From the IMG/VR virus record IMGVR_UViG_3300005936_000004: a DNA stretch of 12,526 bases. One strand, 5' to 3'. A program made the translations under genes and the position numbers. The first letter of the stretch is position 1. Each line of letters opens with the position of its first letter. This DNA is from a virus. Under the pieces are notes generated by a model. That model saw nothing but the letters and a program-made list of their open reading frames with translations. It did not search any database and had not been told where the DNA came from. Below, piece by piece: positions 1 through 12,526 of the stretch.

Positions 1-120
1 ATGTTCCTAAAAATATAAAAGGAGAAATACAAGTTAATGTTCCCATAGGAATAGCAAATCCCTCAGCAGTAGATGAAAGTGTAAACATGCAAGTAATAGT
101 AAAAGTCTATCATTTTGACG
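1..120. repeat. Terminal direct repeat, left copy (circularisation overlap or terminal redundancy)
   Basis: Bases 1-120 are identical base for base to 12407-12526 by direct comparison. The repeat lies inside a continuous ORF. Confidence 0.95.
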
Positions 121-470
121 GTTCAACCGAAACTCAATTAGGAAGCACAGCAACAAGCACATTATATACCATAGGAAATTTAAACTCTGGAGGACTTGCA
201 AGAATGTCTGCAAACGCATTATTAAAAGTTACACAAGCAACAACTAAAAGATTTAAGGCAGGAGAAATATTAAGAGTAACTGTTGAAGGCTGGTTTGAAG
301 CAACAACTGGGGCAAATAGTTTAATAGCAGCAATAGGACTTGACCCCTCAAACAGACCAGACACAAAAGAACCATCAACAATTGCATCTAATAAATTAAG
401 ACCACAAATTATTGTAACAGGCCAACCAACAAGATTAAGTATAAACGTTCCATTTCAATTAGATATATAA
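1..470 (+). CDS. Same 234-aa ORF, 3' part (continues from 12172 across the junction; first full codon at 3)
   Basis: Mapping 12407 to position 1 puts codons at 3, 6, ... 87, the same frame as track ORF 87..470. Bases 3-86 translate without a stop (VPKNIKGEIQVNVPIGIANPSAVDESVN). Total length is 235+470=705 nt, or 234 aa. The protein is beta-rich with no motif I recognise. Confidence 0.7.
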   Translation, partial: VPKNIKGEIQVNVPIGIANPSAVDESVNMQVIVKVYHFDGSTETQLGSTATSTLYTIGNLNSGGLARMSANALLKVTQATTKRFKAGEILRVTVEGWFEATTGANSLIAAIGLDPSNRPDTKEPSTIASNKLRPQIIVTGQPTRLSINVPFQLDI

Positions 471-471
471 A

Positions 472-1572
472 ATGCCAGAAACAGAAATAAGCTCAGCAAG
501 TGAAAGTGATATTACAGGGATAGTCAAAGACGAACCTGTTAGTTCAAACACCCCCGATAGTGCAAGTGATTCAAAAGAAACAAAATGGCAGGATGATGAG
601 TTCTATGAAAGATTTGGTTATTACACAGACCCAAAAACTCCAGAGATAACTGCAGTGATTGATGCAAGAGCAACATGGACTGTTGGAAAAGGGTTTAAAG
701 CAGAACCCGCAGCAAAGTTTATCTTAGATGGGATTAGAGGAAATGGTTTTGATTCATTCAACACCATCCTAGAAAACGCAATGAGAACTATGCTGATTGG
801 TGGGAACTTCTACGCAGAGATTATAAGAGATGATTCTGGAAACTTGATTAATCTTAAACCATTAGACCCTGGAGTAATGTCTAATATTGCAGATAAGGAA
901 GGACAGATAATAAGATTTGAACAAAGCTCTAAAGTTAAAGGAAAGAAACCTAAAACCTTTGCAAGAGATAAAATATTTTATCTTCAAAGGAATAGGGTAT
1001 TAGATGAGATTCACGGGAGAGGTATTATTCAAAAACTTAAACTAATTCTTGATATGAAGACAGAAGCGATGCAAGACAGCAGAACAATCAATCATCAGTT
1101 CGCTTATCCAAAGTGGATAGTTCACTTAGACAGCGACGACGATACAAAGATAGCAGCGTTCAAACAAAAGTATGATGGAATAAATGAAAGCGGACAACCA
1201 ATAATTTACGTTCCTAAAGATATTGTAGTTCCAGAACTTGTTGCAGTTGCGCCAAATGCTTCAATCTCATTATTACCTTGGATAAATTATCTTGATAATC
1301 AATTCTATCAAACTGCTGGAACTCCAAAGATAATCGTAGGAGGTGGTTCAGAGTTCACAGAGAAAGCATCATCAATAGTTTATCTAGCCTTCCAACAGAA
1401 CACAGAAGAAGACCAGCTTTTTTTTGAAGAGCAAGTAGGTTTGCAATTAGGTTTGGAAATAAATTTAGAGTTCCCTGTAAGTTTGGAGAATGAATTGCTT
1501 AGCGATGAGAAGAAAGACCCAGACCCTACAACAGTTCAACCTAACGAAACAACCGCAGGAGCAGGACAATGA
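472..1572 (+). CDS. Putative portal protein
   Basis: 366 aa, located between the terminase block and the capsid block. Segments IHGRGIIQKLKLILDMKTEAMQDSRTINHQFAYPKWIV and FYQTAGTPKIIVGG resemble conserved stretches of HK97/SPP1-type portal proteins as I remember them. The C-terminal tail is acidic. No search was run. Confidence 0.65.
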   Translation: MPETEISSASESDITGIVKDEPVSSNTPDSASDSKETKWQDDEFYERFGYYTDPKTPEITAVIDARATWTVGKGFKAEPAAKFILDGIRGNGFDSFNTILENAMRTMLIGGNFYAEIIRDDSGNLINLKPLDPGVMSNIADKEGQIIRFEQSSKVKGKKPKTFARDKIFYLQRNRVLDEIHGRGIIQKLKLILDMKTEAMQDSRTINHQFAYPKWIVHLDSDDDTKIAAFKQKYDGINESGQPIIYVPKDIVVPELVAVAPNASISLLPWINYLDNQFYQTAGTPKIIVGGGSEFTEKASSIVYLAFQQNTEEDQLFFEEQVGLQLGLEINLEFPVSLENELLSDEKKDPDPTTVQPNETTAGAGQ

Positions 1573-1715
1573 AAATAAGTGATAGATTAATGATTATGGA
1601 AACTGATATTAAATGGATTAAGAAGATGTTGTATGTAACTCTGGGGGGAGTATTCGCAACCATAGGTTTTGAGAATAAAGAAATCTTAGCATTAATCGTA
1701 GGGGTGACAATATAA
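1569..1715 (+). CDS. Small hydrophobic protein (48 aa), translationally coupled
   Basis: The ATG overlaps the portal stop (ATGA at 1569-1572). Its TAA overlaps the next ATG (TAATG at 1713-1717). Translation is MKISDRLMIMETDIKWIKKMLYVTLGGVFATIGFENKEILALIVGVTI, with hydrophobic stretches. It is below the 60-aa track threshold. Confidence 0.5.
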   Translation: MKISDRLMIMETDIKWIKKMLYVTLGGVFATIGFENKEILALIVGVTI

Positions 1716-2956
1716 TGGGAACTGGATTTAGCACAACTAGCAGAAGAAAGAAAAAGAGTAGTGTAACACAGAAATCACCAACTCAAGAATCAACACCAAC
1801 TCCAATTAAGATAAGAAGCGACCAAGCACTTGTTAAGGAAAAGTTTGGAGATACTGTTGAAGGTATTGGTTCACCCGAGATTGAGAGAATAAGAAGAGGA
1901 GAAGCTGGAAGGGTATTTGAGGAACAAGTAAGAGGGGCAGACCCCGGGCAAAGACTTGCAGGAGCAGAGAACTTTCAAGCTAATTTTACCCCTGAACAGC
2001 AACAAAGAAGAGAGAACTTATTATCTGGAGCAGAAGGTTTTGAACAAGAAGCGTTTTTTAACCCACCCCCAAGAGTTGATTTATCACAGAGTGGGTTTGA
2101 ACCTAGACCAGAAGAAGAACAAGGACAAGAACAAGGAGCATTCAGACAAGCATTAAGAAATGTTACAAGGGGAGCGGAGGAATTAACTGGGCAAGCAGCA
2201 GCACAGAGAATTCTAAGTGGGGAAGCAAGTCAAGATGATTTCTTTGCAGTATTACCATTACCTGGAGGAATTACAGGAATAAAGGGGGCAATAGCTGCAA
2301 CAGGTTTAGCAAGATCCGCAAAAGTTGCAGCAAGATCCGCAAAAGTTGCAGGAGCAAAGGGGGCAATAGCTACAACAGGTTTAGCAAGACCCGCAAAAAA
2401 AGCAGCACAAGCAATAAAACCAGGACAGAGTTTAATTAAGAATTTCATAGATGTTGATACTCCAGCATTTAGGAAAGAGTTTGGATTAACAAATGAACAA
2501 ACAAGAGCATTAACAAAACAACTAGGGAATAGGAGAGTTAATGAGGTTGCAGACTTTCTAACCAAAGGAGCAAACCCACAAAAGACAATAGGGAAAAGAA
2601 TAGGTGATACTCTGAAAGCAAATAAAGGAACAATCGGATTAGCTGTGGGAGTTAGTGGAACCATGACATGGTTAGCATCAGATAATATTATTGGTGGAGT
2701 TACAATATTCTCAAATACAATAAGGGATGCAGTAACCTTTGGACAAATGTCTCCAGAGGAAGGATTAGCATCATTAGATTCAGCACAAGAATTTATAAAC
2801 GATGCAAAAACTTTTATCAATGTTAATACTGCCTTGAATCCAGTATTATGGCCTTCAAGAAATCTAGCACTAACAAACACAGAAGTCGCACAATTACAAA
2901 TAGATACAAATAAACTTTTAATGAATCAAAATGGAGGTCAAACAAATGGAAAATGA
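1715..2956 (+). CDS. Hypothetical structural-module protein with basic/disordered N-terminus and in-frame tandem repeats
   Basis: 413 aa. GGGGTGA lies 7 nt upstream of the ATG. The position between portal and scaffold-like genes is where minor head or internal proteins are commonly encoded. It contains the repeat GIKGAIAATGLARSAKVA / ARSAKVA / GAKGAIATTGLARPAKKA and a hydrophobic segment GTIGLAVGVSGTMTWL. Confidence 0.75.
   Translation: MGTGFSTTSRRKKKSSVTQKSPTQESTPTPIKIRSDQALVKEKFGDTVEGIGSPEIERIRRGEAGRVFEEQVRGADPGQRLAGAENFQANFTPEQQQRRENLLSGAEGFEQEAFFNPPPRVDLSQSGFEPRPEEEQGQEQGAFRQALRNVTRGAEELTGQAAAQRILSGEASQDDFFAVLPLPGGITGIKGAIAATGLARSAKVAARSAKVAGAKGAIATTGLARPAKKAAQAIKPGQSLIKNFIDVDTPAFRKEFGLTNEQTRALTKQLGNRRVNEVADFLTKGANPQKTIGKRIGDTLKANKGTIGLAVGVSGTMTWLASDNIIGGVTIFSNTIRDAVTFGQMSPEEGLASLDSAQEFINDAKTFINVNTALNPVLWPSRNLALTNTEVAQLQIDTNKLLMNQNGGQTNGK
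2281..2398 (+). repeat. Nested in-frame tandem repeats (43-nt unit repeated at 75-nt period; perfect 21-nt duplication inside)
   Basis: 2281-2323 and 2356-2398 differ at 2 positions. The unit gcaagatccgcaaaagttgca occurs back to back at 2309-2329 and 2330-2350. Confidence 0.9.
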
Positions 2957-3251
2957 ACAAACGTCGAATGAAGAAGGAGAAAAAACTCAGGGAGAAAGTA
3001 ATTCAACTCAAGAGGGAGAAGGTGAAGGAAAGAAAACGTTATCAAACTTAGACAGAGCAGACTTAAACGTTGAAGCTATGAAGAGAGAGAATGATAGAAA
3101 AGAAGAACTAATCACTCGAGAAGAAAACTTAGCTGCGAGAAAGATGGTCGGTGGAGAAGCAGAAGCTGGAAGCCCATCAAACGAACCTAAGAAAGAAACT
3201 AACTCTGAGTATGCTGAGAGAATCCAATCTGGAGGAGAATATGGAAAATAA
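2946..3251 (+). CDS. Acidic, charged protein; putative scaffolding protein
   Basis: I prefer the ATG at 2946 because GGAGGT (2933-2938) lies 7 nt upstream; the track start is 2931. The 101-aa product is rich in E/K/G/S, has a predicted helical charged core (DRADLNVEAMKRENDRKEELITREENLAARK), and lies upstream of the capsid gene block. Confidence 0.5.
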   Translation: MENEQTSNEEGEKTQGESNSTQEGEGEGKKTLSNLDRADLNVEAMKRENDRKEELITREENLAARKMVGGEAEAGSPSNEPKKETNSEYAERIQSGGEYGK

Positions 3252-3429
3252 AGAAACTAAAATCCCAAAAGATTTAGGGATAAAGATTGGAACACCTTTA
3301 GAAGTTCTATGGACTAATGTTAAAAAGCAAACTGAAAGCTTAATCGAAAAGATTGAGAATGATTTAATAATCAATAAAGAGTTATTGAAAGTTGCTAAAG
3401 ACAAAATTCTACTAGAGCAAAGGAAATAA
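3241..3429 (+). CDS. Hypothetical small helical protein (62 aa)
   Basis: I prefer the ATG at 3241, preceded by GGAGGA at 3231-3236, over the track start 3151, which would overlap the previous gene by about 100 nt. Translation is MENKETKIPKDLGIKIGTPLEVLWTNVKKQTESLIEKIENDLIINKELLKVAKDKILLEQRK. Confidence 0.5.
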   Translation: MENKETKIPKDLGIKIGTPLEVLWTNVKKQTESLIEKIENDLIINKELLKVAKDKILLEQRK

Positions 3430-3435
3430 CAAAGG

Positions 3436-3443
3436 TTTAAATA
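3436..3443 (+). promoter_or_regulatory. Candidate archaeal-type TATA box (TTTAAATA) for the capsid operon
   Basis: TTTAAATA ends 21 nt before the ATG at 3465. No Shine-Dalgarno motif lies in between. The geometry matches the boxes at 7836 and 9669. Confidence 0.5.
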
Positions 3444-3464
3444 TATCAATGCTTAGTGGTAACC

Positions 3465-3869
3465 ATGGCAAACGAAACTACTCTAATGGTTGAGACTGAA
3501 TTACCTATCAATTTTAAATGTGCTGATGGAGCTGGTATTGCAAAAGGTGCTATTCTTAAACTAACTGAATCAATGACTGCTATAATTACAAGCGGACAAA
3601 ATGATAAAGTTGCTGGAATCGCAGCAGAAGAGAAGATTGCAAACGATGGTAAAGTTACTATTAAAGTTTATATGGGTGGAATATTCAAAGGTGTTGCTGG
3701 AGCAGCAGTTAATGTTGGAGCTGCATTAATGACTGATGCAACTGCTAATAAGATTGAAACTGCAACTACTGGAACTGGAGCAAGTGGAATAGGATATGCT
3801 TTAGAAGCGCCTTCTGGAGATGGGCAGACTTTTATATTTAGATTACAAATTGGAGGTTCAGTTTCTTAA
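3465..3869 (+). CDS. DUF2190-like small beta protein (putative head decoration/cement-type protein)
   Basis: 134 aa from the ATG at 3465; the track start 3456 is a GTG. The pattern VAGIAAEEKIANDGKVTIKVYMGGIFKGVAGAAVNVGAAL...IGYALEAPSGDGQTFIFRL matches my recollection of the DUF2190 family. That family is typically encoded immediately upstream of HK97-fold capsid genes. Confidence 0.6.
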   Translation: MANETTLMVETELPINFKCADGAGIAKGAILKLTESMTAIITSGQNDKVAGIAAEEKIANDGKVTIKVYMGGIFKGVAGAAVNVGAALMTDATANKIETATTGTGASGIGYALEAPSGDGQTFIFRLQIGGSVS

Positions 3870-4778
3870 ATGGCAGACACAGCTGGTGAAGCAGATATTA
3901 GAGGAATTGACATCGACAAGTTAGCAAAGGGTTTTGCAGATTTAGAACCTAATGTGATTAAGAGTTTTGTAAGTTCAACTCCAACTAAAGCAAGGGAAAT
4001 GAGATGGTTTCAAAAGACTTCTGGATTTATCGACACAGCTACAACTGACGACACAGCTGGTTCTTTAATCTCAAACACTTCTGGCGGAAGACCTTTTGTT
4101 GCAGAGCAAAGTTGGACTAGAAATACATCTTACGTTAAAGAGTTCTTTGTTGAATCTCCAATGTTGTCTAACTCTGATTTGAAAGATAATGATGTAGACT
4201 TATTGACTACAACTATCAGAGACTTAGTTCGTTCTGTTCAAAGAAAAGTAGGATTGAGAATGTTTGAAATCTTATTTAATTGTTCAGCCGCTACTCCAAC
4301 ACAACCACTAACAGGAACTACAACTGTTCAAACAACAGCTTCTACTGATGGATGGGATATAGTCGCAAATGCAAATCCAATCCTAGATATTCTTAACGGG
4401 CAAATGAAAATAAGACAGCAAGGTTATGATGCTGGTAAAGCAATAATCGCTATGAACTCAATAGAGCATAAGTTCTTAATCAGTTATTTAATAAATACTA
4501 AAGGTTCAAGTATCCCTAGTTTCTCAACTGAGAAATTAAGAAGTGGTGTAGTTATGGAAATATTAGGAAACAGCGTTATAGTAGATGAAATATTTACAAC
4601 TGATTGGGTTTACCAATGGGTGCCAAATAGGGCCGCTACATGGAGAAGTTTTACTCCTCTAACATCTGCTAAGATAGTAGAACCTCTAATCGGCGCAAAG
4701 ATTAGAGTTAAAGAAGAAGGAGAGCTTATTCTACACGACCCAAACGCAGTCCATGTTATTTCTGATACAATAGGATAA
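3870..4778 (+). CDS. Putative major capsid protein (HK97-like fold)
   Basis: 302 aa, starting directly after the DUF2190-like gene stop (TAA then ATG), with GGAGGT at 3852-3857. Size, position downstream of the scaffold-like and decoration-like genes, and a T/S/N-rich beta composition fit small N4-gp56/E-like capsid proteins. The call rests on context plus overall look, not a verified alignment. Confidence 0.7.
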   Translation: MADTAGEADIRGIDIDKLAKGFADLEPNVIKSFVSSTPTKAREMRWFQKTSGFIDTATTDDTAGSLISNTSGGRPFVAEQSWTRNTSYVKEFFVESPMLSNSDLKDNDVDLLTTTIRDLVRSVQRKVGLRMFEILFNCSAATPTQPLTGTTTVQTTASTDGWDIVANANPILDILNGQMKIRQQGYDAGKAIIAMNSIEHKFLISYLINTKGSSIPSFSTEKLRSGVVMEILGNSVIVDEIFTTDWVYQWVPNRAATWRSFTPLTSAKIVEPLIGAKIRVKEEGELILHDPNAVHVISDTIG

Positions 4779-4779
4779 A

Positions 4780-5040
4780 ATGACAAAACAAAATAGAGAA
4801 ACTGCATACAAACATTTTAGAGATTTAGAAACTAATTACACAGCGTTATCACATTTAGATAAAGGTATGACTTCAACTGTTAATTTAAGAGCAAGAGCTA
4901 AAGCTAATGCTGAAGCTTTGTTATTAAGAAATCCAGAACTCGCGCAACTTAACGAAAAAGATAATAAAACTCCAATTACAAAAGAAAATCAATCGCCCAA
5001 AACTGATTCTAAGGAGAAAGTTAAAGATGTCAGTAGATAA
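4780..5040 (+). CDS. Hypothetical protein (86 aa), helical N-half and Lys-rich tail
   Basis: The ORF starts 1 nt after the capsid stop. No motif recognised. Confidence 0.6.
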   Translation: MTKQNRETAYKHFRDLETNYTALSHLDKGMTSTVNLRARAKANAEALLLRNPELAQLNEKDNKTPITKENQSPKTDSKEKVKDVSR

Positions 5041-5209
5041 TTTAAAGAACTTAAGTCAGACTAAGTTTGCAGTTACTAATTTTACAGAAGACTATACTTT
5101 AGATTGTAATGCAGAGGCAGGCGCTACAGCTTTGGCTGATGTTGTAGGAACTTTAATTAGAGACCTAATTGCTAAAGGTATTATCAATCCAGCGGGAACG
5201 GTGGCATAA
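5027..5209 (+). CDS. Hypothetical protein (60 aa)
   Basis: AAGGAG at 5011-5016 lies 10 nt upstream of the ATG. The gene overlaps the previous one by 14 nt. Its TAA (5207-5209) abuts the LamG reading frame. Confidence 0.6.
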   Translation: MSVDNLKNLSQTKFAVTNFTEDYTLDCNAEAGATALADVVGTLIRDLIAKGIINPAGTVA

Positions 5210-6027: not shown

Positions 6028-6036
6028 AATATATTA
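6027..6036 (+). promoter_or_regulatory. Weak candidate TATA-like box (AAATATATTA) upstream of the 6059 ORF
   Basis: This AT-rich box ends 22 nt before the ATG at 6059, the same spacing as the stronger boxes. The sequence is less canonical. Confidence 0.3.
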
Positions 6037-6058
6037 AGTCCTATTGGTAAGTAATTCT

Positions 6059-6223
6059 ATGGCAAATACTATAAGCGAGAAAGAACTAAAAACTAATTGG
6101 CCTAATGAGGAAGGTTTAACTGCAAGAACACAGAAACAAACTGGCAGACAAATGAACCTTCTACCCGAGGGATTGAATGGGATTAAGACTGTTATTCTGG
6201 AAAGAGATAAGGAGTTAATGTAA
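6059..6223 (+). CDS. Small hypothetical protein (54 aa), coupled to the fibre-like gene
   Basis: Translation is MANTISEKELKTNWPNEEGLTARTQKQTGRQMNLLPEGLNGIKTVILERDKELM. Its TAA overlaps the ATG at 6223 (TAATG). It is below the track threshold. Confidence 0.5.
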   Translation: MANTISEKELKTNWPNEEGLTARTQKQTGRQMNLLPEGLNGIKTVILERDKELM

Positions 6224-7668: not shown

Positions 7669-7713
7669 ATTTATAAAACTAAAAATAATCCCACCCCCAC
7701 GATTAAAAACGTT

Positions 7714-7733
7714 CTTTCCTTTGGGAAGTTTTT
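7714..7733 (+). terminator. Hairpin plus T5 tract, candidate terminator of the structural operon
   Basis: ctttcc (7714-7719) pairs with gggaag (7723-7728) including one G-U, with a 3-nt loop, and is followed by ttttt (7729-7733). It lies 46 nt after the fibre stop. Confidence 0.45.
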
Positions 7734-7830
7734 ACTCGCCCCCCCTATGTCATATATTACGCATGGGCTAGTGTTCCATAAAAAATGAGAGAGTTACAGC
7801 GTCGGTGTTAAAGGTTATAGTCTATCACCG

Positions 7831-7843
7831 ATATGTTTATATA
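7831..7843 (+). promoter_or_regulatory. Candidate archaeal-type promoter (ATATGTTTATATA)
   Basis: TTTATATA (7836-7843) ends 21 nt before the ATG at 7865. 12 of 13 positions are identical to the element at 9664-9676. There is no SD upstream of 7865. Confidence 0.55.
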
Positions 7844-7858
7844 GTTGTTGTTGTTGTT
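7844..7858. repeat. (GTT)5 microsatellite between TATA box and start codon
   Basis: gttgttgttgttgtt, read directly from the sequence. Confidence 0.9.
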
Positions 7859-7864
7859 AATACT

Positions 7865-7987
7865 ATGAAAACAAAAACAAGTGAAATTAAATGCAAAAAA
7901 TGCAAACACAAATGGATAACTAAAAGCAAACTAGGAATTCTTATTTGTGCTAGTTGTGGGAGCAAAGTTAAAAATGAAAACAATTAA
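7865..7987 (+). CDS. 4-Cys zinc-ribbon protein (40 aa)
   Basis: I prefer the ATG at 7865 over the track start 7805, which would run through the promoter. Translation is MKTKTSEIKCKKCKHKWITKSKLGILICASCGSKVKNENN, with CxxC-x17-CxxC. Confidence 0.6.
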   Translation: MKTKTSEIKCKKCKHKWITKSKLGILICASCGSKVKNENN

Positions 7988-8147
7988 AGAATATTTGGAT
8001 AAAGCAGTATTATCAGAATTAGAAGCTGGATACGTAACAGCATTAAAAGATGTCTTAGCGTTGATTGATGAAATAACACCTGTACATATAAGGATGGGTA
8101 GTAATACCACAGCAATTAGAGAACTAAAAAAGAGGATTGAAGGATGA
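7974..8147 (+). CDS. Hypothetical small helical protein (57 aa)
   Basis: I prefer the ATG at 7974; the track start 7947 is a GTG. The gene overlaps the zinc-ribbon gene by 14 nt. Confidence 0.5.
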   Translation: MKTIKEYLDKAVLSELEAGYVTALKDVLALIDEITPVHIRMGSNTTAIRELKKRIEG

Positions 8148-8181
8148 CATATTTAATTGATGACAATGGAGGTATAACAAA

Positions 8182-8547
8182 ATGATATTAGAATTAAGCG
8201 GAGACTACCTAAAAGCAGAAGATGTTAAAGGTGGCGAAATAGTTACGTTTAGAGATGCGGGTGTAGGAGCAGAACTAACAAGCCCAGAGGGAAAGGTTAA
8301 GAAAGTTATTAACTTTAAAATTGAACTAGGCGATAAAGCTAAGAGCTACACACCAAACAGAACAGCTTTAGAGTTGTTTGTAAAGGCTTGGGGTAAAGAC
8401 ACTAGTGTTTGGATTGGTAAGCAATTCAAGATTAACTTAATTAAGGTTAATGTGTTTGGAACTCTTAAGGATAGCATAGCGCCAGAGATATTGGCTGGTG
8501 AACAAGCACCAATAAACACTCAAACCGTAGAAACTGTTAAGATGTAG
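8182..8547 (+). CDS. Hypothetical protein (121 aa), beta-rich; a possible OB-fold/DNA-binding role is only a guess
   Basis: GGAGGT (8168-8173) lies 8 nt upstream. No motif confidently recognised. Confidence 0.65.
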   Translation: MILELSGDYLKAEDVKGGEIVTFRDAGVGAELTSPEGKVKKVINFKIELGDKAKSYTPNRTALELFVKAWGKDTSVWIGKQFKINLIKVNVFGTLKDSIAPEILAGEQAPINTQTVETVKM

Positions 8548-8754
8548 ATGGATATCACAAAAGAAACAGATATGTTTGAGAGTGGTGCATCTAAGTCAGC
8601 TGTTAAGCTTATCAAGAACTCTAAAGGTATCAACTGGGAGATAAAGGTTGTTGCTGGTGAAGAGCATTTGATTGAGGGTTTAAAGATGATTGCGTTGAAG
8701 ATGCACAGAGAGTTAGAAGAAGACTTATTGGATAGCAATCTAATGCTAAAGTAA
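8548..8754 (+). CDS. Hypothetical protein (68 aa)
   Basis: The ATG directly follows the previous TAG. This is the last gene before the large noncoding region. Confidence 0.55.
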   Translation: MDITKETDMFESGASKSAVKLIKNSKGINWEIKVVAGEEHLIEGLKMIALKMHRELEEDLLDSNLMLK

Positions 8755-8766
8755 ATTATTATTAAG

Positions 8767-8781
8767 CCCTCACTTAGAGGG
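8767..8781 (+). terminator. Short hairpin after the last early gene (possible terminator element)
   Basis: ccctc (8767-8771), loop actta, gaggg (8777-8781), 13 nt after the stop at 8754. No T tract follows, so terminator function is uncertain. Confidence 0.3.
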
Positions 8782-8897
8782 TATATGGGGATGAGGGGTT
8801 TAATCACCTCCTCACCTCTTTACAAAGCTAGGCTAAGCGTAGTGTATTACTCCTGCAACACAGCAGGCTCTGGCGATGGCTTTATTAAGCTGTGATG

Positions 8898-8925
8898 CTT
8901 TAGCTCAGCGTACGCTGAGCTAAAG
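8898..8925. repeat. Perfect 28-bp palindrome
   Basis: ctttagctcagcgt / acgctgagctaaag. The two 14-nt halves are exact reverse complements with no spacer. Confidence 0.95.
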
Positions 8926-9095
8926 AGATTATAGCTTAGTAACTACGTCTGGCTTGGGATTTGCAGGTTTGTAGTGTGTAAAGAATATTAACGCTGTGCT
9001 TATGCTGTGCTGGTGAGTATTAACCTTTTATAGATTCCAATCTACTTAAAGCTACTGCCTCAAACTAGTGAGCAACGCTAGGAAGTTCCTGCGCT

Positions 9096-9123
9096 AATAG
9101 GCTAGTGCAAGCACTAGCTTATT
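9096..9123. repeat. Inverted repeat: GCTAGTGC-AA-GCACTAGC, extended to 13 pairs with one G-T
   Basis: 9101-9108 is the exact reverse complement of 9111-9118. The flanks aatag / cttatt extend the pairing. Confidence 0.9.
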
Positions 9124-9132
9124 CTATTCCAC

Positions 9133-9153
9133 GCAAGCCAGTGTTGGGCTTGC
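9133..9153. repeat. Hairpin, 7-bp perfect stem (gcaagcc / ggcttgc), 7-nt loop
   Basis: Read directly from the sequence. Confidence 0.85.
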
Positions 9154-9163
9154 TTCCCAACCC

Positions 9164-9185
9164 GCTAAGCTGTGCTGTGCTTAGC
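9164..9185. repeat. Hairpin, 7-bp perfect stem (gctaagc / gcttagc), 8-nt loop containing GCTGTGCT repeats
   Basis: Read directly. GCTGTGCT also occurs at 8993-9000 and 9004-9011. TAAGCTGTG occurs at both 8886-8894 and 9166-9174. Confidence 0.85.
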
Positions 9186-9265
9186 TCCCCATAGCCCCAC
9201 CCCTCCATCCCTCCCTCCCTCCTTCCTTCCTATGCGATTATTGGCTTCTCTTCTCTCTTCTTATC
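9184..9265. repeat. Polypyrimidine (+) / polypurine (-) tract with G-quadruplex / i-motif potential
   Basis: C runs of 3-4 occur at 9187-9190, 9195-9198, 9200-9203, 9209-9211, 9213-9215 and 9217-9219, separated by 1-5 nt. The CT-rich stretch then continues to about 9265. Confidence 0.85.
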
Positions 9266-9282
9266 TAGGAGCCCAGCCACAG

Positions 9283-9326
9283 ATTTTATAATTTTAAAGG
9301 ATTAGATTTTAAAATATTATATATAT
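9283..9326. other. AT-rich block (candidate DNA unwinding element)
   Basis: Only 3 of 44 bases are G/C. It contains agatttta twice (9281-9288 and 9304-9311). Confidence 0.5.
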
Positions 9327-9494
9327 GTGTGTTCACCAGCTAGAGCCTAACACCTCACCAGCGAAGTGCTATAAACTAGCATAGCATAACAGACCCCCAA
9401 CTCGCCGAGCGTTCGAGGCGTCAGATGGTTTATGCGTCCCTTGACCAAATTTTGAGAAGGTAGGAATCACCTTTTAACACAAACACACATATAT
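9321..9494. repeat. 13-bp perfect inverted repeat (atatatgtgtgtt / aacacacatatat) bracketing a 148-nt GC-rich core
   Basis: 9321-9333 is the exact reverse complement of 9482-9494. The enclosed 9334-9481 contains local hairpins at 9367-9372/9381-9386 and 9455-9461/9469-9475. Confidence 0.85.
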
Positions 9495-9595
9495 TAATTG
9501 ACCAAATAGCCCCTCCTGTTTCATTATTAATTATTAACAAATTACGTTGTCATTAAGGGTTTGATGTAAATACACTTTTAACTTTATTATTTCAC

Positions 9596-9615
9596 CTATC
9601 TTCATTCGAAGATAG
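9596..9615. repeat. Perfect hairpin/palindrome ctatcttc-attc-gaagatag upstream of the 9664 promoter
   Basis: 8-bp perfect stem read directly. It sits in an AT-rich region about 50 nt upstream of the TATA box, so it may be an operator. Confidence 0.8.
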
Positions 9616-9663
9616 TCTTATTAATATTAAATTTTATTTAAAGAAATATGTCCTGAATTATAC

Positions 9664-9676
9664 ATAAGTTTATATA
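9664..9676 (+). promoter_or_regulatory. Candidate archaeal-type promoter (ATAAGTTTATATA) for the packaging/structural operon
   Basis: TTTATATA (9669-9676) ends 22 nt before the ATG at 9699. There is no SD. It nearly matches the element at 7831-7843. Confidence 0.55.
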
Positions 9677-9698
9677 TGAATGATGTTAGACATATATT

Positions 9699-9947
9699 AT
9701 GGCAGGAAGAAGTAGATATTCATTTGCATTAGAGTTTGTTAAACAACTCAAAGGAGAAGGTTATGATGAAATTGGATTAATGAGTCTTAGAGAGAAGATG
9801 ATGATGCACTTAGGTTCTGATGAAAGAACTCTCCAGAAATACGCTCAACTCATGGTTTCAACTAAATTACTTAAAGACATGGGAATAGGGTGTAGATTTA
9901 AGATTATGATTCCTAAAGAAGCTAAGAAAGGGCAAAAGAGATTATAA
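9699..9947 (+). CDS. Putative winged-helix DNA-binding protein (82 aa)
   Basis: The helix-turn-helix-like segment SDERTLQKYAQLMVSTKLLKD is followed by a wing-like MGIGCRFKI and a basic tail. It is the first gene after the noncoding region and lies upstream of the terminase. It could be a regulator, an origin binder or a small-terminase equivalent. Confidence 0.4.
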   Translation: MAGRSRYSFALEFVKQLKGEGYDEIGLMSLREKMMMHLGSDERTLQKYAQLMVSTKLLKDMGIGCRFKIMIPKEAKKGQKRL

Positions 9948-10159
9948 TGGCTAGAAAACAAGTAACGCAAAGGCACCACATCAGCTATCCAGATGAACCC
10001 GCTGGAGAGATATTAGTTACCTTATACAAGGGAGAACACTGGGCTATTACAGTATTAAATAGGCGTAAGAAGAACATGAGTAAGGGCTTTCTAAGGTGTT
10101 TGCAGGAGTATATTGATTCTCACGCGGAGCAGGCGGTGGATTTAGATGCAGAAGCTTGA
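9947..10159 (+). CDS. Hypothetical protein (70 aa) immediately upstream of the terminase
   Basis: TAATG overlap with the previous gene and a 14-nt overlap with the terminase gene. It contains RHHISY...GEHWAI. Any link to His-Me (HNH-like) nucleases or to a small terminase is unverified speculation. Confidence 0.55.
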   Translation: MARKQVTQRHHISYPDEPAGEILVTLYKGEHWAITVLNRRKKNMSKGFLRCLQEYIDSHAEQAVDLDAEA

Positions 10160-11423
10160 GCTGGATAAGTGGCAAAAGGAAGTATTGGCTACGAGTGGTA
10201 ACAAAGCCATATGTTCTGGGCGACAATCTGGTAAATCTACTATTATCTCGCAGGATGGAGGGGAATACGCTGCTAAGAACAAGAACAAGAGTATTATGAT
10301 TATCGCAGCAACAGAGAGACAAGCATTACTTCTATTCGAGAAGGTTTTAAGCTATTTACATGATAATTACAGAAAGATGATACTCTCTGGAGTAGATAGA
10401 CCAACTAAGCATGAGTTGAAGCTAAACAATGGAACTATAATAAGATGTTTGCCAACAGGTGATAGTGGTTATGGTATCAGAGGTTTCACAATCGATAGAT
10501 TATACGCAGATGAAGCAGCTTTTATCTCAGAAGACGTGTGGGCGGCTGTAACGCCTATGCTGGCAACAACTGGGGGGGATATTGTTTTGTTATCTACACC
10601 ATTTGGAGCAACTGGTTATTTTCACAGATGTTTTCATGATAAGAACTTTACATCTTTCCATGTGAACACGGAAGAAGTTGCTCGAGGAAGAGAAGAACCA
10701 CAAAAGAGCAATATGCTAGAGTTCTTGAAAGATGAGAAAGAGAGAATGACTAAGTTACAATATCAGCAGGAATATTTGGGATTGTTTGTTGGTGGAATTA
10801 TGAGACTCTTTGAACCAGAATTAATAGATAAGGTTTGCACTATCACCCCTGGGGCTGTCATCCATCCAGGAGGTGATAACTTCTTAGGAGCAGACATAGC
10901 CCGCCATGGTGGGGATGAAACGGTTTTAATATCAGCTAAACGAAGAGGAGAGATATTAAGAATGTTTGAACTAGACATCCCAGAAGCTCAAGCATTAACA
11001 AACACAGCAAGACTAATGATTCACAAAGACTTTCTCTATGATTACAAGAAGATGTATATTGATGATGGTGGTATGGGGATTGGGGTTTATGATATTCTTT
11101 TTGAAGATGAACAAACTAAAAGAAAAGTTGTAGGGATTAATAACGCTAAACGTAGCATTGATAGATTGAAGGGAGCTGATAAAGATAGGAAAGTTCCAAT
11201 GATGAAAGAAGACCTTTATATGAATTTAAAGAACTTGATGGAGAAAAGTTTGATTGAATTGTTTGATGATGCAAGATTAAAGCAAAGCTTAAAATCTATG
11301 CAATACGAATACTCAGAAGGTGGGAAGTTGATAATCTATGGGAACTACTCCCATATTGCAGAAGCATTGATTAGAGTTGCGTTTGCGATGAAAGACAAAA
11401 CTTTAAAACTTTGGGTGTGTTAA
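10146..11423 (+). CDS. terL: Terminase large subunit
   Basis: 425 aa. Walker A is CSGRQSGKST. Walker B with the catalytic Glu is RLYADEAAF. The coupling motif is VLLSTPFG. The C-terminal RNase H-like nuclease signatures are LGADIARHGGDETVL and MYIDDGGMGIGVYD. GGTGGA lies 5 nt upstream of the ATG. Confidence 0.93.
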   Translation: MQKLELDKWQKEVLATSGNKAICSGRQSGKSTIISQDGGEYAAKNKNKSIMIIAATERQALLLFEKVLSYLHDNYRKMILSGVDRPTKHELKLNNGTIIRCLPTGDSGYGIRGFTIDRLYADEAAFISEDVWAAVTPMLATTGGDIVLLSTPFGATGYFHRCFHDKNFTSFHVNTEEVARGREEPQKSNMLEFLKDEKERMTKLQYQQEYLGLFVGGIMRLFEPELIDKVCTITPGAVIHPGGDNFLGADIARHGGDETVLISAKRRGEILRMFELDIPEAQALTNTARLMIHKDFLYDYKKMYIDDGGMGIGVYDILFEDEQTKRKVVGINNAKRSIDRLKGADKDRKVPMMKEDLYMNLKNLMEKSLIELFDDARLKQSLKSMQYEYSEGGKLIIYGNYSHIAEALIRVAFAMKDKTLKLWVC

Positions 11424-11430
11424 GTAAAAC

Positions 11431-11790
11431 ATGGCATTTACAGGAATAACCGCAACAGAAGCAGAGATTGACCAGAAGACTGGAGCTAATGTAAGCGCTG
11501 CATTTACTGATGTTATGAAAACAGCAGCCCTTCTTCAAGCGGAGAGTGTTGTTAATGGATTCGCGAGATATAATTTCTCTGATAATTGGGGAACCTTAAA
11601 CGTTGATGTGAAATATTTAATCACAAACATAACTGCTTCTATGGTTGCGATTGAAGGGATAGGATATGACTTAGATACTTATGGAAGAACTGTTGCAGAA
11701 GATAAAATAACAATTCTAACAAACGACGTTCAAAGAAACTTATCAATATTGAAAGATAAAAAAGTACAGGACTTTGTAAATGGCGCATGA
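11431..11790 (+). CDS. Hypothetical protein (119 aa); possible head-tail adaptor/connector-type protein
   Basis: Helical; the opening (ITATEAEIDQKTG...MKTAALLQAESVVNGF) is reminiscent of gp6-like connector proteins. This is a weak, memory-based call. Confidence 0.3.
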   Translation: MAFTGITATEAEIDQKTGANVSAAFTDVMKTAALLQAESVVNGFARYNFSDNWGTLNVDVKYLITNITASMVAIEGIGYDLDTYGRTVAEDKITILTNDVQRNLSILKDKKVQDFVNGA

Positions 11791-12172
11791 TTTTAAACGA
11801 TTCCCTGAATTAACAAACAGGCAGATGAACTTATACTATTTTGAAAGCCCACACAAACAGATAACTCAGGACTTTGTAGCTAAGGTTGTGAAAGTAACTG
11901 ATGGAGACACAATAAGAGTTAAGTGGGAAGATAGAGACTTTGACTTTCCTATTCGTTTTATAGATATTGCAGCCCCAGAACTTGATGAGATTGGTGGAGC
12001 TAAAAGCCAGAGTTGGTTGGAGAGTGAGATTTTAGGGGAAGAAGTAACTGTTGTTATGGATAGAAAAAACAGAGTGGAGAAGTGGGGAAGACTTTTAGGA
12101 AGAATATTATTTAGAGGGATTGATATTAATCAAGCAAGCATGAACGGAGGTTTTTCGATAAGATTTGAATAA
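11780..12172 (+). CDS. Staphylococcal nuclease (SNase/thermonuclease) fold nuclease
   Basis: VTDGDTIRV, IRFIDIAAPE, EEVTVVMDRKNRVEKWGRLLGRI and GIDINQASMNGGFS match the SNase family pattern (DGDT...R-x-x-gIDaPE...D-x-yGR-x-L...G-x-diN). It has overlapping starts and stops with both neighbours. Confidence 0.85.
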   Translation: MAHDFKRFPELTNRQMNLYYFESPHKQITQDFVAKVVKVTDGDTIRVKWEDRDFDFPIRFIDIAAPELDEIGGAKSQSWLESEILGEEVTVVMDRKNRVEKWGRLLGRILFRGIDINQASMNGGFSIRFE

Positions 12173-12526
12173 TGACATTACCAGGAGTTTTTAATCAGAG
12201 GGAACAGTTTGTTAATTATGATTGGGTTGATATTGCAAATGGAACGGGTTATGTTGAATATTATGGAGCGTTATGTAATGGTGGATTAGAAACAACAACA
12301 CCGAGAAGCACAGTTAGTTCAGAGTTCATAAAGATAGTAAATCCAATAGGAGGAATAGCAAACGCATTAACTCAACTATTTAATTTAGATTTTGATATAG
12401 AATTTAATGTTCCTAAAAATATAAAAGGAGAAATACAAGTTAATGTTCCCATAGGAATAGCAAATCCCTCAGCAGTAGATGAAAGTGTAAACATGCAAGT
12501 AATAGTAAAAGTCTATCATTTTGACG
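12172..12526 (+). CDS. Hypothetical virion-module protein, 5' part of a 234-aa ORF that crosses the genome junction
   Basis: The ATG at 12172 overlaps the preceding TAA (TAATG). My translation (MTLPGVFNQREQFVNYDWVDIANGTGYVEYYGALCNGG...) has no stop to the window end. The ORF is missing from the track only because it runs off the end. Confidence 0.7.
   Translation, partial: MTLPGVFNQREQFVNYDWVDIANGTGYVEYYGALCNGGLETTTPRSTVSSEFIKIVNPIGGIANALTQLFNLDFDIEFNVPKNIKGEIQVNVPIGIANPSAVDESVNMQVIVKVYHFD
12407..12526. repeat. Terminal direct repeat, right copy
   Basis: Exact 120-nt copy of 1-120. This implies a unit genome length of 12,406 bp. Confidence 0.95.

What the first reader, a model, noticed from the sequence alone, without database searches (positions are those of the whole stretch)
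1..12526. Near-minimal terminase/portal/HK97-type virus genome with no recognisable replication, integration, lysis or tail-tube genes
I can assign TerL, portal-like, scaffold-like, DUF2190-like and capsid-like proteins, two adhesin-like proteins, a nuclease and a few small DNA-binding proteins. Nothing looks like a polymerase, primase/helicase, Rep, integrase, endolysin or holin, tail tube or tape measure. At 12.4 kb it sits at the extreme low end for viruses using this packaging machinery. Either replication and exit are fully outsourced to the host through the noncoding region and small proteins, or the functions are carried by novel proteins. Candidates are the 413-aa repeat protein, the 234-aa junction ORF, and the 121-aa and 68-aa early proteins.
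Basis: inference. Interest (0 to 1): 0.6.

Follow-up and report, generated by a model that had tools for sequence, protein, structure and literature searches.

The report
Minimal 12-kb archaeal head-tail virus genome
This is the complete 12.4-kb genome of an uncultured, probably archaeal virus from a large undescribed family that builds a tailed-phage-type capsid and packaging motor yet has no recognisable replication, integration, lysis or tail-tube genes, so it copies its DNA with host or helper-virus machinery.

Summary
The window is a closed 12,406-bp genome: an exact 120-nt end overlap, with the junction bridged by contigs in four salt-lake runs. All genes lie on one strand.

About 80% of the genome is one virion and packaging block, 7.6% is a 944-nt noncoding gap, and six ORFs of 60-121 aa are the only other coding capacity.

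Firm calls: TerL, portal, cement protein, staphylococcal-type nuclease and LamG protein. The HK97-type capsid call rests on weak but consistent sequence hits. New calls from structure and profile work:
- The 119-aa protein has a head-to-tail adaptor fold.
- The 121-aa "early" protein is an OB-fold resembling single-strand DNA-binding proteins.
- The 234-aa and 413-aa proteins look like virion surface proteins, not replication enzymes.

No polymerase, primase, Rep, MCM, integrase, lysin, tail tube, tape measure or sheath was found here. Among 65 accessory ORFs of relatives, one AAA_25 ATPase was the only replication-type domain.

More than 380 relatives exist. Viral contigs top out near 13 kb, and closed genomes measure 10.8-12.4 kb.

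Promoter layout and an intron-bearing tRNA in a close relative point to an archaeal host.

A satellite lifestyle is not excluded. This scan reported the same family twice before on other DNA.

The parts
1..120 (.). Assembly overlap, identical to 12407-12526; closes the 12,406-bp genome
   Evidence: Exact 120-nt direct repeat. Contigs bridge 12406->1 in four runs.
12172..12526 (+). First part of the 234-aa junction ORF (continues at 121-470): beta-sandwich virion protein
   Evidence: Family alignment A4 has a conserved N-terminus and a C-terminal domain ending PF(K/Q)(I/L)DI. The ESM Atlas model of the L002 homologue is a beta-sandwich resembling DUF11, PepX_C and NPCBM_assoc, and its sequence-feature neighbours and closest structural neighbours are viral clusters. 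Weak profile hit to fimbrial subunits, E 0.0067.
3..470 (+). C-terminal 155 aa of the same 234-aa junction ORF
472..1572 (+). Portal protein, 366 aa
   Evidence: Pfam Phage_portal E 2.3e-13. phrog_12 E 4e-18.
1569..1715 (+). 48-aa ORF with a hydrophobic stretch that reads as one membrane span (by eye, no predictor run); kept at this position in relatives; function unknown
   Evidence: Homologues at this position in L002 (portal-adjacent) and L053.
1715..2956 (+). 413-aa protein: charged, disordered-looking N-terminus, Ala/Gly-rich repeats, conserved C-terminal domain. Probably a virion surface or appendage protein
   Evidence: 356 clusters in 1.8 billion representatives. In long members the C-terminal domain is fused to PEGA, CarboxypepD_reg, CBM96 and SNase domains. 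No Pfam, PHROG or PDB hit of its own.
2931..3251 (+). 106-aa acidic protein, scaffold-like by position and composition only
   Evidence: Conserved position and weak similarity in relatives. No family hit.
3244..3429 (+). 61-aa conserved small ORF between the scaffold-like and cement genes
   Evidence: Homologues in L005, L021, L026, L064 and L070.
3456..3869 (+). Cement / capsid-stabilising protein (DUF2190), 137 aa
   Evidence: Pfam Phage_cement_2 E 1.9e-9. phrog_673 E 5.8e-10.
3870..4778 (+). Major capsid protein, HK97-type, 302 aa
   Evidence: phrog_1650 major head protein E 9e-4. Family profile A3 hits solved capsids P-SCSP1u gp19 (E 2e-4) and gp6 (E 2.5e-3), and T7 10A weakly.
4780..5209 (+). 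Two small conserved ORFs (86 aa and 60 aa) directly after the capsid gene; possible neck or fibre-joining proteins
   Evidence: 10-11 relatives each at the same position. No family hit.
5209..6027 (+). LamG / concanavalin-like adhesin, 272 aa. The window's start codon reads ATA; the population has ATG
   Evidence: Pfam Laminin_G_3 E 3.7e-14. Frame open from 5176. ATG at 5209 in G001 and in all four runs (place 5211 A>G).
6044..6223 (+). 59-aa conserved ORF preceding the fibre gene
   Evidence: 10 relatives.
6223..7668 (+). 481-aa fibre- or spike-like protein: conserved N-terminal ~65 aa, variable remainder
   Evidence: The N-terminus matches 402-605-aa proteins at the same position in L070, L064, L026 and L101, while the rest differs. 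No family hit.
7805..8147 (+). Zinc-ribbon ORF (likely start 7865) and an overlapping 66-aa ORF; small 'early' proteins
   Evidence: Weak hits, all below Pfam's cut-offs, to TFIIB, A2L, TFIIS and ribosomal-type zinc ribbons. TTTATATA lies 22-29 nt upstream of 7865.
8182..8547 (+). 121-aa OB-fold protein with a conserved C-terminal VETVKM tail; candidate single-strand DNA-binding protein
   Evidence: 15 homologues. AF2 model pLDDT 72. Foldseek top hits are PrgE, Pf3 SSB, gene V protein and SSBs. VIA: PRD1 SSB P12 Z 5.4, Pf3 SSB Z 5.2, gp32, RPA.
8548..8754 (+). 68-aa ORF, unassigned
   Evidence: A few relatives only: L060 and L093. No family hit.
8755..9698 (.). 944-nt noncoding gap, hairpin-dense; candidate origin and control region
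   Evidence: No ORF of 40 aa or more lies wholly inside it on either strand. RNA-fold z -6.3 for 8760-9235. Strongest sliding-window signal in the genome. 28-bp perfect palindrome at 8898-8925. No Rfam family.
9234..9296 (+). Family-wide conserved element GCGATTRTTGG - 21 nt - TAGGA - CCCAGCCACA-like box - AAATTTTATAA; promoter/operator of the TerL operon
   Evidence: Found in 22 family loci, one a near-identical fragment of this genome. In every locus where a TerL gene was mapped it lies upstream of TerL on the same strand. In five loci it starts exactly 80 nt before the TerL ATG.
9699..9947 (+). 82-aa ORF, first gene after the gap; its helix-turn-helix look is a guess by eye
   Evidence: Five homologues, none with a Pfam domain. 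TTTATATA lies 24-31 nt upstream of the ATG.
9947..10159 (+). 70-aa highly conserved ORF overlapping the TerL start; packaging accessory by position
   Evidence: 42 clusters at 46-82% identity. Invariant H10 H11 Y14 Y27 G29 E30 H31 W32. No Pfam or PDB hit.
10146..11423 (+). Large terminase subunit, 425 aa
   Evidence: Pfam Terminase_6N E 2.7e-10. 30% identity over 97% of its length to Halogranum tailed virus 1 TerL, E 1e-40.
11431..11790 (+). Head-to-tail adaptor, 119 aa
   Evidence: AF2 on 56 sequences: pLDDT 83.5, pTM 0.79. By my count about 35 of the top 42 VIA hits are phage adaptor or neck proteins: phage 812 Z 9.6, P74-26 Z 9.3, Mu Z 8.4, HK97 gp6 Z 6.2, P22 gp4 Z 5.7.
11780..12172 (+). 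Staphylococcal-nuclease (SNase) homologue, 130 aa, catalytic residues conserved
   Evidence: Family profile against thermonuclease E 1.5e-13; D41, D43, R59, E67 and R104 invariant. phrog_452 E 1.7e-12.

Best explanation
The window is the whole genome of a free, probably lytic, very small head-tail-type virus of an archaeon. The host may be a small-genome DPANN-type archaeon from a salt lake.

Shown:
- The genome is closed at 12,406 bp.
- About 9.9 kb (80%) is one co-oriented block: 70-aa accessory, TerL, adaptor, SNase nuclease, beta-sandwich protein, portal, 48-aa hydrophobic protein, 413-aa surface protein, scaffold-like protein, cement, HK97-type capsid protein, two small proteins, LamG adhesin, 59-aa protein, fibre.
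- The remaining 2.5 kb holds six ORFs of 60-121 aa and a 944-nt hairpin-dense gap.
- None of the six small ORFs resembles an enzyme of DNA synthesis.

Inferred:
- The capsid is small, probably T=4 or T=3.
- DNA is packaged by TerL together with the conserved 70-aa partner.
- The portal is capped by the adaptor, which carries a stubby, tube-less attachment apparatus built from the fibre, the LamG and beta-sandwich proteins and the 413-aa protein. The nuclease may travel with the virion.
- Replication is done by the host replisome, started in the hairpin-rich gap and helped by the OB-fold single-strand-binding-like protein and small DNA-binding proteins.
- The nuclease may recycle host DNA into nucleotides.
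- The conserved element at 9234-9296 is the TATA-type promoter/operator that switches on the TerL operon.
For: Closure.

Gene calls.

No replication, integration, lysis or tail-tube family in any window ORF. Among 65 accessory ORFs of relatives, one AAA_25 ATPase was the only such domain.

OB-fold model with single-strand-binding proteins among the top hits.

Autonomy:
- The fibre has a conserved N-terminal anchor and a variable remainder.
- There are LamG adhesins here, and F5/8-type-C adhesins in relatives.
- So the element carries its own fast-evolving attachment genes.
- No integrase was found in the 65 accessory ORFs of relatives, and the only long contig inspected in detail, 77 kb, joins a relative of this virus to another virus rather than to a host chromosome.

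Family: more than 380 TerL relatives. Closed genomes measure 10,806 to 12,430 bp.

Archaeal host:
- TTTATATA lies 22-31 nt upstream of start codons at operon heads, with no Shine-Dalgarno sequence there; internal genes carry GGAGG.
- In five relatives the conserved TATA element sits so that TerL would be leaderless.
- Close relative L113 has a tRNA gene with a ~28-nt insert in the anticodon arm.
- The best isolate TerL match is a haloarchaeal virus.
- TerL-bearing contigs were binned with an 'uncultured archaeon' (0.6 Mb) and a 'Nanoarchaeota archaeon'.
- A TrmB regulator occurs in a relative.

Precedent: verdandiviruses are tailed archaeal viruses of 20 kb or less with no replication genes (10.1101/2021.07.29.453957).

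Hairpin-dense gap at the same place in this genome and in L113, despite no sequence similarity.
Against: - No host link by CRISPR spacer or integration site was obtained. Other family contigs were binned with bacteria: Saccharibacteria, Balneolia and an unnamed 'bacterium'.
- No nozzle, knob or tube protein was identified, so a self-made tail is inferred, not shown.
- The adaptor is the short 119-aa type. The short adaptors among the hits (96-139 aa: P74-26, Mu, JBD30, Bxb1, HK97 gp6) come from long-tailed phages, whereas most of the podovirus adaptors among the hits are 185-260 aa.
- OB-fold scores are modest (Z 5-6, Foldseek E 5e-3) and show a fold, not a function.
- Origin function of the gap is untested. 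Hairpins could equally be RNA structures or protein-binding sites.
- A close relative shares 180 nt at 99.4% identity with a 42-56 kb tailed virus from the same lake series. This fits co-infection and leaves room for helper dependence.
Confidence: 0.6

Rival explanations
1. It is a satellite virus. It makes its own capsid, packaging motor and attachment fibres, but needs a co-infecting larger tailed virus for DNA replication and perhaps for a tail. Models are Streptomyces MiniFlayer or the capsid-forming PICIs, but in archaea and without an integrated stage.
For: - Gene content and size match that class: capsid, portal, TerL and adaptor, no replicase, no integrase, 10.8-12.4 kb. MiniFlayer has capsid and packaging genes, no replicase, no integrase and short fibres (PMC10690885).
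- The adaptor is the short type seen in long-tailed phages and in SaPI1.
- No tube, nozzle or knob protein was found.
- Close relative L113 shares 180 nt at 99.4% identity with a 42-56 kb tailed virus of the same lake series, enough to fuse the two in a 77-kb contig.
Against: - The window itself shares no DNA with that large virus, and only TerL is homologous, at 30%.
- The large virus lacks the family's conserved promoter element.
- The family carries its own hypervariable fibre and adhesin genes. These are needless for a tail thief, although MiniFlayer also has fibres.
- Verdandiviruses, which also lack replication genes, are taken to rely on the host for replication.
- One relative carries its own AAA_25 ATPase.
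Confidence: 0.25
2. It is a bacteriophage of an ultra-small bacterium, for example a Candidate Phyla Radiation / Saccharibacteria host, not an archaeal virus. The rest of the reading is unchanged.
For: Family contigs were binned with a Saccharibacteria MAG (0.8 Mb), a 'bacterium' MAG (0.7 Mb) and a Balneolia MAG. Genes inside operons use GGAGG ribosome-binding sites.
Against: - Binning of 2-11 kb viral contigs is unreliable, and the bins disagree with each other.
- TATA-like boxes lie 22-31 nt upstream of leaderless starts.
- A relative has a tRNA with a short insert in the anticodon arm.
- The best isolate TerL match is a haloarchaeal virus.
- Archaeal-type zinc-ribbon and TrmB hits.
Confidence: 0.1
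3. The virus does encode its own replication initiator, hidden among the unassigned small ORFs: the 82-aa, zinc-ribbon, 66-aa or 68-aa protein. This initiator would bind the hairpin-rich gap and load the host helicase, so replication is virus-directed rather than fully outsourced.
For: - Those ORFs flank the gap.
- The OB-fold protein next to them suggests a small replication module.
- One relative carries an AAA_25 ATPase in the equivalent accessory region, between the capsid gene and the noncoding gap upstream of TerL.
- The gap is hairpin-dense in two lineages.
Against: - None of these ORFs matches any initiator family.
- They are poorly conserved across the family, whereas initiators that match a fixed origin usually co-vary with it.
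- No iteron set conserved across relatives was found.
Confidence: 0.2

Closest known systems
Verdandiviruses (tailed viruses of Asgard archaea; Medvedeva et al., 10.1101/2021.07.29.453957)
   Same: Small archaeal viruses with HK97 capsid, portal and TerL. A capsid-stabilising (cement) gene lies directly upstream of the capsid gene. They carry arrays of small zinc-binding and HTH ORFs and no replication or transcription genes, and the authors predict full reliance on the host.
   Different: Verdandiviruses encode a major tail protein, a short tape measure and a baseplate hub, and reach about 20 kb. Here no tube or tape measure was found and genomes are 10.8-12.4 kb. The capsid and portal proteins found no match in 50,697 deposited phage and archaeal-virus records. 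I did not check whether verdandivirus genomes are in that collection.
Streptomyces satellite virus MiniFlayer / MulchRoom (PMC10690885)
   Same: Capsid and packaging genes, no replicase. MiniFlayer has no integrase and short podovirus-like fibres.
   Different: Bacterial host and a demonstrated helper. No sequence similarity was tested here. Helper dependence is unproven for this family.
Capsid-forming PICIs (as summarised in PMC10690885)
   Same: Elements that encode capsid, portal, terminase, HNH and head-tail connectors but no tail. The comparable size, roughly 10-15 kb, is from my own knowledge, not from the paper.
   Different: PICIs are integrated in host chromosomes and carry an integrase and their own replicase or primase. 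None was found here, and the family is recovered as closed free genomes.
Smallest isolated tailed phages (Salmonella phage astrithr and satellite P4, both 11.6 kb; phi29-like podoviruses)
   Same: Same size range and the same capsid, portal and packaging principle (PMC13669383).
   Different: By my own knowledge, phi29-like phages carry a protein-primed DNA polymerase and P4 a primase-helicase. No polymerase or primase was found here.
Halogranum tailed virus 1 (haloarchaeal myovirus, 144 kb)
   Same: Closest TerL among deposited genomes: 30% identity over 97% of its length, E 1e-40.
   Different: A genome twelve times larger. No capsid or portal similarity is detectable by tblastn.

Membership tests
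Duplodnaviria / Caudoviricetes (hallmarks as in the ICTV profile, PMC12451611 abstract) | HK97-fold major capsid protein | tested here: met
   phrog_1650 E 9e-4. Family profile hits solved podovirus capsids, E 2e-4 and 2.5e-3. This is sequence-level evidence only; no structure model was made.
Duplodnaviria / Caudoviricetes | Portal protein | tested here: met
   Pfam Phage_portal E 2.3e-13, above the curated cut-off.
Duplodnaviria / Caudoviricetes | Large terminase (ATPase-nuclease) | tested here: met
   Pfam Terminase_6N E 2.7e-10. Read by eye, a Walker A motif (GRQSGKST) and a Walker B motif (LYADEA) are present, and most of their residues are invariant in the family alignment.
Duplodnaviria / Caudoviricetes | Capsid maturation protease | tested here: inconclusive
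   No protease family in any window ORF or in 65 accessory ORFs of relatives. Only sequence profiles were used.
Tailed virion (any Caudoviricetes morphotype) | Head-to-tail adaptor | tested here: met
   By my count about 35 of the top 42 structural hits of the 119-aa model are phage adaptor or neck proteins, Z up to 9.6. No sequence-profile hit.
Tailed virion (any Caudoviricetes morphotype) | Tail tube, nozzle or knob, tape measure or sheath | tested here: inconclusive
   No Pfam, PHROG or PDB profile hit. Single members of the 234-aa family gave weak PHROG 'tail protein' hits, E 0.005. The 413-aa, 481-aa, LamG, 86-aa and 60-aa proteins were not modelled.
Verdandiviruses | Siphovirus-type tail module (major tail protein, tape measure, hub) and Asgard host shown by CRISPR spacers | tested here: inconclusive
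   No tail module found by profiles. Host link not obtained. Direct sequence comparison with verdandivirus proteins was not done.
Capsid-forming PICI | Integrase and chromosomal residence | tested here: not met
   No integrase in the window or in 65 accessory ORFs of relatives. The family is recovered as closed 10.8-12.4 kb contigs.
Capsid-forming PICI | Own replication initiator or primase | tested here: not met
   None found by Pfam or PHROGs.
Satellite virus of the MiniFlayer type | Capsid and packaging genes present, replicase absent | tested here: met
Satellite virus of the MiniFlayer type | Dependence on a helper virus | not testable with these tools
   The only lead is the 180-nt 99.4% identical segment shared by relative L113 and a 42-56 kb virus.
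phi29-like / Picovirinae-type minimal podoviruses | [quoted passage not shown] | tested here: not met
   No polymerase family in any ORF. The largest unassigned ORFs, 413 aa and 481 aa, have structural-protein relatives.

The most novel reading that the evidence does not exclude
The family may be the first head-tail-type satellite viruses of archaea. They would be virulent, never-integrated elements that build their own capsid, motor and fibres. They would borrow DNA replication, and possibly a tail, from a co-infecting 40-60 kb tailed archaeal virus, such as the one that shares a 180-nt near-identical segment with a close relative.
Probability: 0.2. Interest if true: 0.8.

Novelty: new variant of a known kind. 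Interest (0 to 1): 0.55.

Why it matters
Tailed viruses are the most abundant viruses known. Their lower size limit, and which functions they can hand over to the cell, are open questions.

This family is large: more than 380 TerL relatives, found in salt-lake runs and in many other metagenome data sets whose record names point to soda-lake sediment and other habitats. Its closed genomes measure 10.8-12.4 kb, around or below the 11.6 kb of the smallest cultured tailed phages. Unlike those phages, it carries no polymerase or primase.

It therefore gives a natural minimal parts list for a portal/terminase/HK97 virion. It also poses a concrete test: can such a virus replicate from a noncoding origin with host enzymes only, or is it a new kind of archaeal satellite? 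If the host is a DPANN-type archaeon, it would also add to a virome that is barely known.

The conserved promoter/operator element and the adaptor, nuclease and surface-protein set are ready targets for experiments.

Tried and rejected
- Rfam on the window and on five relatives: nothing in the window beyond a chance microRNA hit.
- tRNA scan of the window: none.
- 119-aa family against PDB sequences and PHROGs: nothing usable. Foldseek on its model: nothing significant. Only the exhaustive structural aligner found the adaptor fold.
- 413-aa protein: no Pfam, PHROG, PDB or ESM Atlas lead of its own.
- Complex prediction of the 413-aa C-terminal domain with the nuclease: no verdict.
- 70-aa ORF as a cysteine-less HNH nuclease: suggested by invariant HH...EHW residues and by true HNH genes at the same position in L001 and L011. 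Not supported by BLASTP, Pfam or a PDB profile, so kept only as an idea.
- Spacer-like matches of the window in four MAGs that hold family contigs: none convincing.
- MAG taxonomy through handles: not given.
- The 77-kb contig as an integrated provirus: rejected. It is about 1.4 copies of a 12.2-kb relative joined to another virus through a 142-180-nt identical segment.
- Sequence conservation of the 944-nt gap: only the 63-nt element is conserved.
- Context of the long fused protein P0112: uninformative.
- No RNA holder was listed among sequencing runs.
- Literature searches found no description of this family.

Full report
**What is there.** The window's first 120 bases equal its last 120 exactly, so the unit is 12,406 bp. 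In each of four salt-lake runs a contig bridges position 12406 back to 1. The DNA therefore exists as a circle, a concatemer or a permuted population. All credible genes are on the + strand. Composition is 31-44% G+C, and there is no tRNA. The genome occurs at high identity in 24 'salt lake metagenome' runs from 2017-2019. Some of those may be its own source.

**Gene assignments that hold.**
- TerL 10146-11423: Terminase_6N, E 2.7e-10.
- Portal 472-1572: E 2.3e-13.
- Cement / DUF2190 protein 3456-3869: E 1.9e-9.
- LamG protein: E 3.7e-14.
- A zinc-ribbon ORF (all).
- Nuclease 11780-12172: a staphylococcal thermonuclease homologue (family profile E 1.5e-13) with the catalytic Asp, Arg, Glu and Arg invariant.
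- Capsid protein 3870-4778: supported only weakly, but from two directions. These are phrog_1650 at E 9e-4 and a five-member family profile that hits solved podovirus capsid proteins at E 2e-4 and 2.5e-3.

**New assignments.**

(i) The 119-aa ORF after TerL is conserved in every relative.
- A 56-sequence alignment gave an AlphaFold model with pLDDT 83.5.
- Foldseek found nothing significant.
- An exhaustive alignment to 48,161 solved chains put phage head-to-tail adaptor and neck proteins in about 35 of the top 42 places, by my count.
- Examples: phage 812 Z 9.6, P74-26 Z 9.3, KHP30 Z 8.8, Mu Z 8.4, HK97 gp6 Z 6.2, P22 gp4 Z 5.7.
- The scores are modest for a helical protein, but the list is very specific. 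I call it the adaptor.

(ii) The 121-aa 'early' ORF has 15 homologues sharing a C-terminal VETVKM tail.
- Its model (pLDDT 72) is an OB-type barrel.
- Best matches include PrgE, Pf3 SSB, gene V protein, PRD1 SSB P12 (Z 5.4), gp32, bacterial SSBs and RPA.
- This shows a fold. Single-strand DNA binding is an inference.

(iii) The 234-aa junction ORF belongs to a family with a conserved C-terminal domain. The ESM Atlas model of a homologue is a beta-sandwich resembling DUF11, PepX_C and NPCBM_assoc. Its sequence-feature neighbours and closest structural neighbours are viral clusters.

(iv) The 413-aa ORF has 356 relatives at the 50%-identity cluster level. In the long ones its conserved C-terminal domain is fused to PEGA, CarboxypepD_reg-like, CBM96 and SNase domains. 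That marks it as an exposed virion protein and ties it functionally to the separate nuclease gene of this genome.

(v) The 481-aa ORF shares only its first ~65 residues with 402-605-aa proteins at the same position in relatives. This is the usual layout of a fibre: a conserved anchor and a variable receptor-binding part.

**What is absent.** Pfam and PHROGs on every window ORF found none of the following: polymerase, primase, helicase, Rep, MCM or Orc, integrase, endolysin, holin, tail tube, tape measure, sheath or protease.

I then scanned 65 ORFs of relatives that lie outside the conserved core. Pfam found one AAA_25 ATPase (L006, E 1.6e-25), HNH nucleases upstream of TerL in two genomes, adhesin domains, a TrmB regulator and a CcdA-like protein. 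It found no other replication-type domain and no integrase. The absence is therefore a property of the family, not an accident of this contig.

**The family.**
- IMG/VR, GTDB MAGs and metagenomes hold more than 380 TerL relatives at roughly 40-70% identity.
- Gene order is conserved: small ORF(s), TerL, adaptor, nuclease, beta-sandwich protein, portal, small hydrophobic ORF, 300-500-aa protein, acidic ~95-aa protein, ~60-aa ORF, one or two cement genes, capsid protein, then a variable arm.
- Closed genomes measure 10,806, 12,180, 12,412 and 12,430 bp. Among the contigs returned, only a 15.6-kb one and a 77-kb one exceed about 13 kb.
- The 77-kb contig is a chimera of about 1.4 tandem copies of a 12.2-kb relative and a 42-56 kb tailed virus, joined through a 142-180-nt segment that is 99.4-100% identical in both.
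- The window itself shares no DNA with that large virus.
- The capsid and portal proteins find nothing in 50,697 deposited phage and archaeal-virus records. TerL is closest to haloarchaeal HGTV-1, at 30%.
- My literature searches found no description of the family. A 2026 survey notes that complete genomes below 11.6 kb with Duplodnaviria genes are frequent in metagenomes (PMC13669383).
- This scan reported the same family twice before on other DNA, with the same conclusion.

**The noncoding gap.** The 944 nt between 8754 and 9699 contain the most hairpin-prone stretch of the genome.
- Fold z-score is -6.3 for 8760-9235 and down to -6.7 in sliding windows.
- There is a perfect 28-bp palindrome at 8898-8925.
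- There is a 189-nt stretch closed by 13-bp arms, z -3.3.
- Close relative L113 has a 1.08-kb gap at the same place, with equally strong hairpin signal (z -5 to -7) but no alignable sequence.

Only one piece is conserved: GCGATTRTTGG, 21 T-rich bases, TAGGA, a CCCAGCCACA-like box and AAATTTTATAA, at window 9234-9296.
- I found it in 22 family loci, one of them a near-identical fragment of this genome. Wherever a TerL gene was mapped in the locus, the element lies upstream of it on the same strand.
- In five loci it starts exactly 80 nt before the TerL ATG.
- That spacing puts the TATA-like box about 27 nt before a leaderless start codon.
- I read it as the promoter/operator of the packaging and virion operon. 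A packaging-site role is not excluded.

**Host.** No direct link was obtained. The indirect evidence points to archaea:
- TTTATATA lies 22-31 nt upstream of the starts at 9699, 7865, 3465 and 6059 with no ribosome-binding site, while internal genes carry GGAGG.
- The promoter geometry described above.
- A tRNA gene in close relative L113 has a ~28-nt insert in the anticodon arm. Rfam scores it at 53.8 bits, and the bacterial-mode tRNA finder misses it.
- The HGTV-1 TerL match.
- Bins named 'uncultured archaeon' (0.6 Mb) and 'Nanoarchaeota archaeon'.

Other bins are bacterial, so binning alone proves nothing.

**How it most likely works.**

Shown: a full head-and-packaging set, an adaptor, its own adhesins and fibre, a nuclease, and no DNA-synthesis enzyme.

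Inferred:
- A small capsid, T=4 or T=3, by analogy with P4, SaPI1 and phi29 (my own knowledge and PMC13669383).
- A tube-less, fibre-bearing portal vertex.
- Replication by the host replisome starting in the hairpin-rich gap, aided by the OB-fold protein.
- Nucleotide supply from host DNA through the nuclease.

The precedent is the verdandiviruses, tailed archaeal viruses of 20 kb or less that also lack replication genes and place a capsid-stabilising gene in front of the capsid gene.

The main rival is a satellite virus of the MiniFlayer kind: capsid and packaging genes, no replicase, no integrase, short fibres.
- For it: the missing tail hub, the short adaptor, and the recombination trace with a larger virus.
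- Against it: the element's own variable fibres, the lack of any shared DNA or promoter element between this genome and the large virus, and the archaeal precedent for host-dependent replication.

I put the autonomous virus at about 0.6 and the satellite at about 0.25.

**Verdict.** This is a new variant of a known kind: a family-level group of minimal portal/terminase/HK97 viruses, likely archaeal, with replication handed over to another genome.

Noticed in passing
window 5209-5211: The LamG gene's start codon reads ATA in this contig. It reads ATG in the 99%-identical fragment G001 and, at full depth, in all four salt-lake runs (place 5211 A>G). The window therefore carries a rare or erroneous variant, and the gene is 5209-6027 (272 aa).
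   Followed up: yes
window 9234-9296, and 21 other family loci (e.g. L023:1786, L027:1841, L019, L056): A conserved noncoding element: GCGATTRTTGG - 21 nt - TAGGA - CCCAGCCACA-like box - AAATTTTATAA. It lies upstream of TerL on the same strand in every locus where TerL was mapped. In five genomes it starts exactly 80 nt before the TerL ATG.
   Followed up: partly
L113:743-843: A close relative (12.3 kb) encodes a tRNA with a ~28-nt insert in the anticodon arm. Rfam scores it at 53.8 bits and ARAGORN misses it. It looks like an archaeal-type tRNA intron. The anticodon was not worked out.
   Followed up: partly
L113:12171-12350 versus L117:12331-12510; chimera L112/L116: A 180-nt segment is 99.4% identical between a 12.3-kb relative and a 42-56 kb tailed virus that carries its own terminase, Mu-F-like protein, NrdD, QueD and an intein-bearing radical-SAM gene. 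It fuses the two in a 77-kb contig.
   Followed up: partly
window 9947-10159: A 70-aa ORF overlaps the TerL start and is very conserved (42 clusters, 46-82% identity), with invariant H10, H11, Y14, Y27, G29, E30, H31 and W32. True HNH nucleases occupy this position in L001 and L011. No profile supports an HNH reading here.
   Followed up: partly
P0112, P0134 (relatives of window 1715-2956): Long proteins fuse PEGA domains, the conserved C-terminal domain of the 413-aa family and an SNase nuclease in one chain. This suggests that the separate nuclease and 413-aa genes of this genome work together on the virion.
   Followed up: partly
window 9312-9500: A 189-nt stretch closed by perfect 13-bp arms (9321-9333 / 9482-9494) lies just downstream of the conserved TATA element. 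RNA-fold z is -3.3. It is absent from relatives, so it could be an inserted element or a small RNA.
   Followed up: partly
window 1465-1496, 5350-5900, 7988-8047: Contigs of co-occurring strains break away from the window at these places, and there is a 9-nt deletion at 7650 in all four runs. These are mosaic spots at the portal C-terminus, in LamG and in the early ORFs.
   Followed up: no
L006:6133-7092: The 10.8-kb closed relative carries a 319-aa AAA_25 (RecA-type) ATPase in its variable arm. It is the only replication-type domain seen in the family.
   Followed up: partly
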